The notes under the pieces are model-generated. The model did not search any database. It was not told where the DNA came from and worked only from the letters and a program-made list of their open reading frames with translations. A stretch of 64,000 bases of DNA, from assembly GCF_055900595.2 (NCBI RefSeq), contig NZ_CM148325.1; one strand, 5' to 3'. The translations under genes and the position numbers were made by a program. Below, piece by piece: positions 57,609-57,685 of the stretch. How positions within the stretch are numbered: the first letter of the stretch is position 1; the number at the start of each line of letters is the position of its first letter.

Positions 57609-57685
57609 TGGACCGCCACCGGGGACTCGAACCTCGCACACTCAACTTAAAGGGTTGACGCTCTTTCCTGATGAGCTAGTGGCGG
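57609..57685 (-). tRNA. tRNA with canonical cloverleaf but unusual anticodon loop CCUUUAA (anticodon reads UUU, C at position 33)
   Basis: Manual fold: acceptor CCGCCAC/GTGGCGG, D-arm GCTC/GAGC, anticodon stem TCAAC/GTTGA, T-loop TTCGAGT, 3' CCA encoded. Confidence 0.55.

What the first reader, a model, noticed from the sequence alone, without database searches (positions are those of the whole stretch)
57609..57685. Phage tRNA with canonical cloverleaf but non-canonical anticodon loop (C33, anticodon UUU)
Manual folding gives perfect acceptor, D and anticodon stems and a good T-arm, but the 7-nt anticodon loop reads CCUUUAA, with C instead of the near-universal U at position 33. It differs by two swapped bases from a CUUCUAA (Arg-UCU) loop. 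It may be a decaying argN-type phage tRNA, a tRNA with altered decoding, or a sequencing error in the loop.
Basis: seen in the sequence. Interest (0 to 1): 0.35.

Follow-up and report, generated by a model that had tools for sequence, protein, structure and literature searches.

The report
Prophage tRNA with damaged anticodon loop
This is a real tRNA gene in a lambda-like prophage of E. coli: an arginine-tRNA copy whose anticodon loop mutated to read like lysine and lost a near-universal base, so it is most likely a widespread but barely working leftover rather than a new decoding device.

Summary
On the minus strand, 57685..57609 is a 77-nt cloverleaf with loop CCUUUAA (C33 = window 57652, anticodon UUU). 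ARAGORN calls it tRNA-Lys and Rfam scores it 44.4 bits.

It is not a sequencing error. The identical 77 nt occur in 278 of 5426 complete E. coli genomes, where RefSeq annotates it as tRNA-Lys.

It sits 1 nt after an ileZ-like tRNA(CAU), downstream of Q, pR' and tR' and upstream of the lysis genes. This is the argN slot of lambdoid phages. It is 90% identical to Arg(UCU) alleles and 84% to Stx2-phage argN(UCG) in that slot, but only 61% to host lysT. The loop differs from the Arg(UCU) allele by U33C and C35U.

I judge it most likely (0.55) a poorly decoding or non-decoding relic:
- C33 removes the U-turn base and blocks t6A37 formation by the E. coli enzymes on a test tRNA.
- The T-stem has an A·C mismatch and the discriminator is U73.
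- It is 3-7 times more polymorphic than its neighbour tRNAs.
- About half of carrier genomes hold further-damaged copies.
- Its array partners read rare NNA codons; AAA is not rare.

The main rival (0.22) is a nuclease-resistant tRNA-Lys, since it lacks the PARIS AriB and P2-OLD cleavage motifs and C33 flanks the PrrC cut site. Interest is modest.

The parts
57609..57685 (-). The finding: a 77-nt argN-family tRNA gene with anticodon loop CCUUUAA (C33 at 57652; anticodon UUU at 57651..57649), C1-G72, U73, encoded CCA and an A51.C63 mismatch in the T stem
   Evidence: ARAGORN; Rfam 44.4 bits; sequence; alignment to Arg alleles
57687..57762 (-). Upstream neighbour: ileZ-like tRNA with anticodon CAU, called tRNA-Ile by PGAP. 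It is separated from the finding by a single A (57686)
   Evidence: ARAGORN; Rfam 72.5 bits; RefSeq annotation of the identical locus
57531..57606 (-). Downstream neighbour: a decayed tRNA-Thr(UGU) pseudogene. It has 15 differences from K-12 thrU, broken D, anticodon and T stems, and CCA changed to CTA
   Evidence: Rfam 19.8 bits, below threshold; alignments; difference count
57772..57800 (-). Sigma-70-like promoter TTGCAA-17-TATTAT ending 9 nt before the first tRNA. Its -35 and -10 are conserved in upstream flanks that otherwise diverge
   Evidence: Consensus scan; upstream haplotypes. Function is inferred
57886..57909 (-). G+C-rich hairpin with T runs on both sides, in the position of the lambdoid tR' terminator between pR' and the tRNAs
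   Evidence: Scan (listed on the + strand); sequence; weak isrJ/isrK-like Rfam matches at 57884-57957. Role is inferred
57961..57989 (-). pR'-like late promoter (TTGCAA-17-TATATT) overlapping the end of Q
   Evidence: Consensus scan. Function is inferred
57973..58668 (-). Antiterminator Q gene
   Evidence: Pfam PF06323, E = 7.6e-90; RefSeq annotation of the identical locus
56921..57193 (-). 90-aa holin-like ORF, the first gene downstream of the tRNA array
   Evidence: Weak Pfam holin matches below the cut-off
55730..56263 (-). Phage lysozyme (R)
   Evidence: Pfam PF00959, E = 1.4e-24
55266..55748 (-). Rz lysis protein
   Evidence: Pfam PF03245, E = 4.5e-31

Best explanation
The gene is a derivative of the arginine tRNA that normally fills the second slot of the lambdoid late-region tRNA array (ileZ-argN-argO type).

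Shown:
- Two loop substitutions (U33C, C35U) turned CUUCUAA (Arg, UCU) into CCUUUAA.
- A compensated stem change (G30-C40 to A30-U40) came with them.

Inferred:
- It is still transcribed with the array, from the array's own promoter and from Q-antiterminated pR' transcription.
- It is still cut out by RNase P and 3' trimming, because the acceptor/T minihelix and CCA are intact.
- As a decoder it is weak or dead. C35U removes the main ArgRS determinant. C33 removes the U-turn uridine and is an anti-determinant for t6A37 synthesis by E. coli TsaBCDE. The T stem carries an A.C mismatch, and the discriminator is U73 rather than the A73 of tRNA-Lys.
- It persists and spreads for two reasons. It sits inside a compact cassette, with 1-2-nt spacers, that moves by recombination among prophages. 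A foldable acceptor/T unit there may also still be needed to release the flanking tRNAs.
For: Homology and slot:
- Searches give 89.6% identity to Arg(UCU) alleles, 84.4% to Stx2 argN, 70% to argU and 61% to lysT.

Relaxed constraint:
- In 83 ungapped four-tRNA arrays, pi per site is 0.022 for this tRNA against 0.003, 0.007 and 0.007 for the Ile, Thr and Gly neighbours. It also exceeds the 0.009 of the 44-nt downstream flank, even though 17 of its 77 nt were fixed by the search anchor.
- Of 797 E. coli genomes with a match, only 278 hold the intact sequence.
- In the evenly spaced listing, about half of carriers hold derived haplotypes: U8C + C11U, a 1-nt D-stem deletion, +G52A or +G18A. PGAP leaves these unannotated and Rfam no longer detects them at E <= 1, while the Ile, Thr and Gly neighbours stay annotated.
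- Of about 30 mutation events I listed by hand in the C33 clade, about 12 break a pair or an invariant base. I estimate about 50% would do so under neutrality.

The slot is decay-prone:
- Many other alleles have lost the anticodon arm or are rearranged.
- The adjacent Thr gene in this very window is a pseudogene.

Mechanism from the literature:
- E. coli TsaBCDE cannot modify a U33C tRNA-fMet (PMC8887486).
- U33 enforces the U-turn needed for ribosome binding (PMC13276492).

Codon logic:
- The array partners read A-ending codons. In six neighbouring phage ORFs ATA occurs at 12.9, AGA at 6.9, CGA at 7.7, ACA at 11.2 and GGA at 18.1 per 1000 codons. I judge these rare in E. coli and enriched here from my recollection of E. 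coli codon tables.
- AAA (42 per 1000) is the common Lys codon.

A second UUU allele on the same scaffold carries a different loop lesion: U38, which breaks the strict 36-UAA-38 rule for t6A (PMC13276492).
Against: - The intact haplotype is the single most common one and is identical in genomes from many hosts and countries.
- The cloverleaf, the T loop, G18G19, A14, A21 and the CCA are all intact.
- The high-frequency derived changes hit U8 and the D arm but spare the acceptor/T pairing, so some constraint remains.
- The Rfam score (44.4) is no worse than that of Stx2 argN (43.0), which is assumed to be functional.
- UUU anticodons have arisen on at least two scaffolds in these arrays, which could mean that UUU is selected.
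- From memory of the literature, U33-substituted tRNAs retain partial activity in vitro and in suppression assays.
- The polymorphism comparison rests on a few clonally expanded haplotypes and on loci sampled with sequence anchors.
- No expression or charging data were available.
Confidence: 0.55

Rival explanations
1. It is a working, nuclease-proof tRNA-Lys(UUU). LysRS charges it through U34-U35-U36, and the phage supplies it to keep AAA/AAG decoding going when host defences (PrrC, RloC, PARIS AriB, OLD-type Toprim nucleases) destroy host tRNA-Lys. C33 would sit at the PrrC scissile bond, and the Arg-derived body would lack the other recognition elements.
For: - Phage tRNA-Lys(UUU) variants rescue phages from PARIS and PrrC (PMC11464382, PMC12409363, PMC11555353; PMC12445682 screen).
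- AriB needs U36AAUC|A41 and U16, and the changes U39A, A41C and U16C block cleavage. This tRNA has G39, U40, U41 and C16.
[quoted passage not shown] The Arg(UCU) sister allele has CAG/CUG there, whereas this allele (UCAAC/GUUGA) has none.
- PrrC cuts 3' of U33, which here is C33.
- In most related prophages the next gene is tRNA-Thr(UGU), the other prime AriB and OLD target.
- A canonical-U33 UUU allele on the same scaffold exists, as does a Thr-body UUU allele.
- AAA is not rare, so codon supplementation does not explain a UUU anticodon.
Against: - The absence of the AriB and OLD motifs follows trivially from the Arg-derived body.
- The partner Thr(UGU) is 100% identical to host thrU and keeps both cleavage motifs, so the array as a whole is not escape-adapted.
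- C33 is predicted to block t6A37 in E. coli (PMC8887486) and to weaken the U-turn.
- The discriminator is U73, not A73, and the T stem is mismatched.
- The gene shows relaxed constraint, and widespread further-damaged descendants exist.
- No paper found here tests any effect of position 33 on PrrC.
Confidence: 0.22
2. It is a non-decoding tRNA-like processing unit. The decoding function is gone, but the acceptor/T minihelix is kept because RNase P cleavage at its 5' end, 1 nt after the CCA of the Ile tRNA, together with 3' trimming, is needed to mature the flanking tRNAs of a spacer-less array. This overlaps with the best explanation.
For: - The spacers are 1 nt upstream and 2 nt downstream.
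- All derived changes present in 5 or more copies (C2U, C4U, U8C, C11U, the D-stem deletion, U45A, C63U, U73G) leave acceptor and T pairing intact or improved.
- Changes that break the acceptor or T stem are seen in only 1-4 copies each.
Against: - There are few independent events and the haplotypes are clonal, so there is no statistical power.
- Other alleles of the slot have lost large parts, yet their Ile gene is still intact.
- RNase P dependence was not tested.
Confidence: 0.15
3. It is still an arginine tRNA, or a missense or shifted-frame decoder: for example charged by ArgRS through A20 and reading AAA/AAG, or using a shifted anticodon.
For: The body is Arg-derived and keeps A20. The loop contains CCU and CUU triplets at shifted registers.
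Against: - From established identity rules (Tamura 1992 and McClain 1990, from memory), C35 is the major ArgRS determinant and is lost here.
- The 5-bp stem fixes a 7-nt loop, so a shifted anticodon would need a non-standard loop geometry.
- Misreading Lys codons as Arg would be expected to be costly, yet the allele is common.
Confidence: 0.04
4. It is a sequencing or assembly error in the loop.
For: None found.
Against: The identical 77-nt sequence is in 278 complete genomes from different laboratories and in at least 73 IMG/VR contigs. The diverged haplotypes retrieved by whole-gene similarity (L106-L110) all retain the same loop.
Confidence: 0.005

Closest known systems
argN / Arg(UCU) tRNA of the ileZ-argN-argO cluster of Stx-converting and other lambdoid phages (933W type; here Stx2a_F349, AP012530)
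   Same: It occupies the same slot: 1 nt after the ileZ-like tRNA(CAU), downstream of Q and upstream of stx or the lysis genes. It has the same unusual scaffold (C1-G72, U73, U15/G48, 9-nt D loop with A20). Identity is 84-90%.
   Different: The anticodon is UUU rather than UCG or UCU. Position 33 is C rather than U. The stem pair 30-40 is A-U rather than G-C.
E. coli tRNA-Lys(UUU) (lysT family)
   Same: The anticodon is UUU with A37 and A38, and C32 is shared. RefSeq and GenBank label it tRNA-Lys.
   Different: Overall identity is only 61%. It has C33 rather than U33 and U73 rather than A73. The anticodon-stem 3' strand is GUUGA rather than UCAAU. It has C16 rather than U16.
Nuclease-escape tRNA-Lys(UUU) of phage T5 and other virulent coliphages (PARIS and PrrC counter-defence)
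   Same: It is phage-encoded with a UUU anticodon. It differs from host tRNA-Lys at positions 39, 41 and 16, the very positions whose change blocks AriB.
   Different: It belongs to a temperate lambdoid prophage. Its body derives from an Arg tRNA, not a Lys tRNA. It carries C33 and a T-stem mismatch. No rescue activity has been shown for it.
Eukaryotic cytoplasmic initiator tRNA-Met (C33)
   Same: It is a natural tRNA with C33 next to an ANN-reading anticodon (PMC8887486).
   Different: The initiator binds the P site directly, and its modification enzymes co-evolved to accept C33. The E. coli enzymes do not accept C33.

Membership tests
tRNA (Rfam RF00005) | Cloverleaf with 7/4/5/5-bp stems and a score at or above the gathering threshold | tested here: met
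   44.4 bits against 29. One A51.C63 mismatch. Family covariation supports the fold.
tRNA (Rfam RF00005) | Invariant nucleotides U8, A14, G18G19, A21, U33, purine 37, G53-T54-Psi55-C56, A58, C61 | tested here: not met
   All are present except U33, which is C (window 57652).
Lambdoid late-region argN-type tRNA | Position directly after the ileZ-like tRNA(CAU), between Q/pR'/tR' and the lysis (or stx) genes | tested here: met
Lambdoid late-region argN-type tRNA | Sequence homology to argN alleles | tested here: met
   84.4% to Stx2 argN(UCG) and 89.6% to Arg(UCU) alleles.
Lambdoid late-region argN-type tRNA | Arginine anticodon (UCG or UCU, C35) | tested here: not met
   The anticodon is UUU.
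Bacterial tRNA-Lys(UUU) | Anticodon U34 U35 U36 (the main LysRS determinants) | tested here: met
Bacterial tRNA-Lys(UUU) | Discriminator A73 and canonical loop CUUUUAA | tested here: not met
   It has U73 and the loop CCUUUAA.
Bacterial tRNA-Lys(UUU) | Aminoacylation by LysRS and decoding of AAA/AAG | not testable with these tools
   This needs charging assays or tRNA-seq.
Phage nuclease-escape tRNA | Same anticodon as a nuclease target but altered at the nuclease's recognition or cleavage positions | tested here: met
   G39, U40, U41 and C16 replace the AriB site U39, C40|A41 and U16. There is no paired CNG motif for OLD. C33 sits at the PrrC cut.
Phage nuclease-escape tRNA | Resists cleavage and rescues phage growth on defence-carrying hosts | not testable with these tools
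   No experimental data were found. The supplementary tRNA library of PMC12445682 is not held.
tRNA pseudogene / relic | Loss of a functionally essential nucleotide, plus relaxed constraint compared with neighbouring tRNA genes | tested here: met
   It has C33. Its pi per site is 0.022 against 0.003-0.007 for the neighbours. Further-damaged haplotypes occur in about half of carriers.
tRNA pseudogene / relic | Not aminoacylated, and not used in translation | not testable with these tools
   This needs tRNA-seq or acid-gel northern blots.

The most novel reading that the evidence does not exclude
A temperate-phage tRNA that works as an elongator with C33 in a bacterium. It would be an Arg-scaffold tRNA recruited to Lys identity by C35U. 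U33C at the PrrC scissile site, together with its non-Lys anticodon stem and D loop, would make it immune to the tRNA-Lys-targeting defences (PrrC/RloC, PARIS AriB, OLD-type nucleases). That would make the lambdoid Ile-Lys-Thr-Gly array a counter-defence cassette rather than a rare-codon supplement.
Probability: 0.2. Interest if true: 0.65.

Novelty: new variant of a known kind. Interest (0 to 1): 0.3.

Why it matters
As a relic, it is mainly an annotation caution. Hundreds of RefSeq genomes and several phage records label it 'tRNA-Lys' purely from the anticodon, although its body is an argN-type Arg tRNA and its loop lacks U33.

It also shows how the lambdoid late-region tRNA slot turns over. 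Anticodon switches, captured host thrU and glyT copies, and pseudogenes sit side by side.

If instead it is functional, it would be a rare natural bacterial elongator tRNA with C33. It would also be the first indication that temperate lambdoid phages carry nuclease-proof tRNA-Lys, extending the T5-type counter-defence idea to prophages.

Tried and rejected
- Sequencing error: rejected by the population data.
- Single-sequence MFE folding: not informative. For the window tRNA the MFE is -25.0 kcal/mol (z = -1.46) and the cloverleaf is -22.3. K-12 lysT shows a similar gap.
- Literature searches for ileZ, argN and argO returned nothing relevant.
- No paper was found linking prophage tRNA-Lys with PARIS in lambdoid phages, and the PARIS Nature paper does not discuss temperate phage tRNAs.
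- The supplementary tRNA library of the P2-OLD paper is not held, so I could not see whether this sequence was screened.
- PrrC papers available here state the cut site (3' of U33) but give no data on U33 substitutions.
- A scan of GTDB species representatives for the anticodon arm found nothing. There is therefore no evidence for the allele outside the E. coli prophage pool.
- A shifted-anticodon reading (UUA, CCU or CUU) was rejected, because the perfect 5-bp stem fixes a standard 7-nt loop.
- The idea that the whole array is escape-adapted was weakened. Its Thr(UGU) is 100% identical to host thrU, and its Gly(UCC) is 1 nt from glyT.
- tRNAscan-SE isotype models could not be run. Pairwise identity to K-12 and prophage tRNAs was used instead.

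Full report
**1. The observation**

The feature is real and lies on the minus strand. ARAGORN reports tRNA-Lys (anticodon ttt) at 57609-57685 and a tRNA with anticodon CAT at 57687-57762, both on the minus strand. Rfam's tRNA model scores the finding at 44.4 bits against a gathering score of 29, with E = 3.5e-6 for the whole window. The neighbour scores 72.5 bits.

Read 5'->3', the RNA is CCGCCAC-UA-GCUC-AUCAGGAAA-GAGC-G-UCAAC-CCUUUAA-GUUGA-GUGUG-CGAGG-UUCGAGU-CCCCG-GUGGCGG-U-CCA.
- The acceptor, D and anticodon stems are perfect.
- The T stem has one A51.C63 mismatch.
- The 7-nt loop is C32 C33 U34 U35 U36 A37 A38. C33 is window base 57652.
- The first pair is C1-G72 and the discriminator is U73, both unusual.

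**2. Not an error**

The identical 77 nt occur in 278 of 5426 complete E. coli genomes, from humans, poultry, cattle, pigs and water. There the gene is annotated tRNA-Lys. A further 474 genomes have copies at 95-99% identity and 45 at 90-95%.

In IMG/VR, 73 contigs carry the identical sequence. All diverged copies that I retrieved by whole-gene similarity keep the CCTTTAA loop.

The allele is also present in sequenced phages or prophages: PhiR47_1, vB_EcoM-606R7, vB_EcoS-689R5, Evi and the PPompW prophages. No copy was found among the GTDB species representatives.

**3. What it is**

The context is the late-gene control region of a lambdoid prophage, all on the minus strand:
- DUF968 (59025-60179), RusA (58659-59024) and antiterminator Q (57973-58668).
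- A pR'-like promoter (57989..57961) and a tR'-like hairpin (57886-57909).
- A second promoter-like site, TTGCAA-17-TATTAT (57800..57772), ending 9 nt before the first tRNA.
- The tRNA array.
- A holin-like ORF, lysozyme and Rz. RefSeq annotates the identical locus the same way.

The -35 and -10 hexamers of the array promoter are conserved in upstream flanks that are otherwise very different. This suggests the array has its own promoter.

This slot, 1 nt after the ileZ-like tRNA(CAU), holds different genes in different phages:
- In Stx2 phages it holds argN with anticodon UCG.
- In other E. coli prophages it holds an Arg(UCU) tRNA.

The window gene is 89.6% identical to the Arg(UCU) allele and 84.4% to Stx2 argN. 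It is 70% identical to host argU and only 61% to host lysT.

Against the Arg(UCU) allele, the loop differs by U33C and C35U. The stem pair G30-C40 has become A30-U40, a compensated change. Arg(UCU) alleles that already carry the A30-U40 stem also exist.

Across 59 distinct alleles of the slot, the cloverleaf is paired in 95.6% of cells, and five pairs show double changes: 4-69, 7-66, 27-43, 30-40 and 51-63. Slid controls show 29-53% pairing and at most 2 such pairs. So the family is, or was, a genuine tRNA under structural selection.

**4. Is the C33/UUU allele functional?**

Evolutionary evidence points to relaxed constraint.
- In 83 ungapped Ile-Lys-Thr-Gly arrays, nucleotide diversity per site is 0.022 for this gene. 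It is 0.003, 0.007 and 0.007 for the three neighbours and 0.009 for the 44-nt downstream flank. This holds although 17 of its 77 bases were fixed by the search anchor and part of the sample was selected for an intact D arm.
- In the evenly spaced listing of E. coli genomes, about half of carriers hold derived haplotypes:
  - C4U/U8C/C11U;
  - a 1-nt D-stem deletion, common in EHEC prophages;
  - these with G52A or G18A in addition.
- PGAP does not annotate those haplotypes and Rfam no longer reports them at E <= 1. The flanking Ile, Thr and Gly (or Arg) genes remain annotated at 57-74 bits.
- Of about 30 mutation events I listed by hand within the clade, about 12 break a pair or an invariant base. 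This is close to my rough neutral expectation of about 50%.
- The slot as a whole is decay-prone. An unbiased sample anchored on the Ile tRNA shows many copies with the anticodon arm deleted or rearranged.
- In this window the third gene (57606..57531) is a Thr(UGU) pseudogene, with 15 of 76 differences from thrU and three broken stems.

Mechanistic evidence points the same way.
- U33 enforces the U-turn required for ribosome binding (PMC13276492).
- E. coli TsaBCDE cannot place t6A37 on a U33C tRNA-fMet (PMC8887486).
- From memory of the literature, t6A37 and mnm5s2U34 are what make the weakly stacking UUU anticodon bind its codons.
- C35U removes the main ArgRS determinant, and U73 is not the A73 of tRNA-Lys (identity rules from memory of Tamura 1992 and McClain 1990).

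Codon logic agrees.
- The array partners read AUA, AGA/CGA, ACA and GGA. I recall these as rare in E. coli.
- In six neighbouring phage ORFs they occur at 12.9, 6.9/7.7, 11.2 and 18.1 per 1000 codons. AAA occurs at 42 per 1000 and, from memory, is served by six host genes.

A second UUU allele on the same scaffold has a canonical U33 and perfect stems but U38 (loop CUUUUAU). It is in 13 E. coli genomes and one IMG/VR contig. U38 violates the strict 36-UAA-38 rule for t6A. Both UUU alleles therefore carry a second loop lesion. The fully canonical CUUUUAA loop was not found on this scaffold in IMG/VR.

**5. What still argues for some function**

- The intact haplotype is the most common one.
- All invariant bases except U33 are present.
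- Its Rfam score equals that of Stx2 argN (43.0).
- Every derived change present in 5 or more copies spares or improves acceptor and T pairing, including C63U, which repairs A51.C63. Changes that break the acceptor or T stem are seen in only 1-4 copies each.
- With 1-2-nt spacers, a foldable acceptor/T unit may still be needed for RNase P to separate the neighbours. This is an inference.

**6. The counter-defence rival**

Recent work shows that phage tRNA-Lys(UUU) variants neutralise PARIS and PrrC (PMC11464382, PMC12409363, PMC11555353).
- AriB cleaves host tRNA-Lys at U36AAUC|A41 and needs U16. This RNA has G39, U40, U41 and C16.
[quoted passage not shown] The Arg(UCU) sister allele has CAG/CUG there, while this allele has none.
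- PrrC cuts 3' of U33, which here is C.
- In most related prophages the next gene is tRNA-Thr(UGU), the other main target of AriB and OLD.

This pattern is suggestive, but three points weaken it.
- The missing motifs follow automatically from an Arg-derived body.
- The Thr gene is 100% identical to host thrU, and the Gly gene is 1 nt from glyT. These are captured host genes, not escape variants.
- The relaxed-constraint signal argues against an important role.

I give this reading about 0.2.

**7. Verdict**

The finding is a true, widespread, argN-derived tRNA gene whose anticodon loop carries two substitutions.

The most likely state is a processed but poorly decoding or non-decoding relic kept inside a mobile tRNA cassette (0.55). 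It is a new variant of a known kind, of modest interest. Its main practical consequence is that its routine annotation as 'tRNA-Lys' should be treated with caution.

Noticed in passing
window 57531-57606 (-): A heavily decayed tRNA-Thr(UGU) pseudogene lies directly after the finding. It has 15 of 76 differences from K-12 thrU, broken D, anticodon and T stems, and CCA changed to CTA. Prophages that carry an Arg(UCU) allele in slot 2 (strain 135) share it, so the window array looks like a recombinant of two array types.
   Followed up: yes
L003 1695-1848; L006 1695-1848 (related prophages): Most prophages with the C33 allele carry a four-gene array: Ile(CAU)-Lys(UUU)-Thr(UGU)-Gly(UCC). The Thr gene is 100% identical to host thrU, and the Gly gene is 1 nt from host glyT. 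These look like host genes from the thrU-tyrU-glyT operon captured by the phage.
   Followed up: partly
Five IMG/VR loci among L226-L272: The thrU-like third tRNA has G35U, giving a canonical Lys-type loop CUUUUAA on a Thr body. It is always paired with the most diverged slot-2 haplotype (C4U, U8C, C11U, C63U, U73G). This is a second, independent switch to UUU in these arrays.
   Followed up: partly
L039 4006-4082 (-); 13 E. coli genomes (H111-H122): A sister allele on the same argN scaffold has a canonical U33, anticodon UUU and perfect stems, but U38 (loop CUUUUAU). It is annotated tRNA-Lys.
   Followed up: partly
window 57772-57800 (-): The promoter-like TTGCAA-17-TATTAT just upstream of the first tRNA has conserved -35 and -10 hexamers in upstream flanks that otherwise diverge. 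The array may therefore be expressed in the lysogen as well as late in lytic growth.
   Followed up: partly
Loci (slot 2 after the ileZ-like tRNA in IMG/VR prophages): Many prophages carry clearly broken slot-2 genes, with the anticodon arm deleted or an unrelated insert (for example ...GGAAGAGCAGACGACACGATAACAGGG...). The ileZ-like gene next to them was intact at least over the 29-nt 3' anchor used for the search.
   Followed up: no
window 23551-23739 (+): Rfam finds isrK (72.7 bits) and a C4 antisense RNA (78.9 bits) side by side. This suggests a second phage-derived element elsewhere in the window.
   Followed up: no
window 61048-61223 (-): A sok antitoxin RNA scores 112.4 bits, implying a hok/sok-type toxin-antitoxin locus about 3 kb upstream of the Q region.
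   Followed up: no
window 631-833 (-) and 14797-14890 (+): The STnc180 sRNA (202.7 bits) and the trp operon leader (92.9 bits) place the window in an E. coli chromosome near the trp operon.
   Followed up: no
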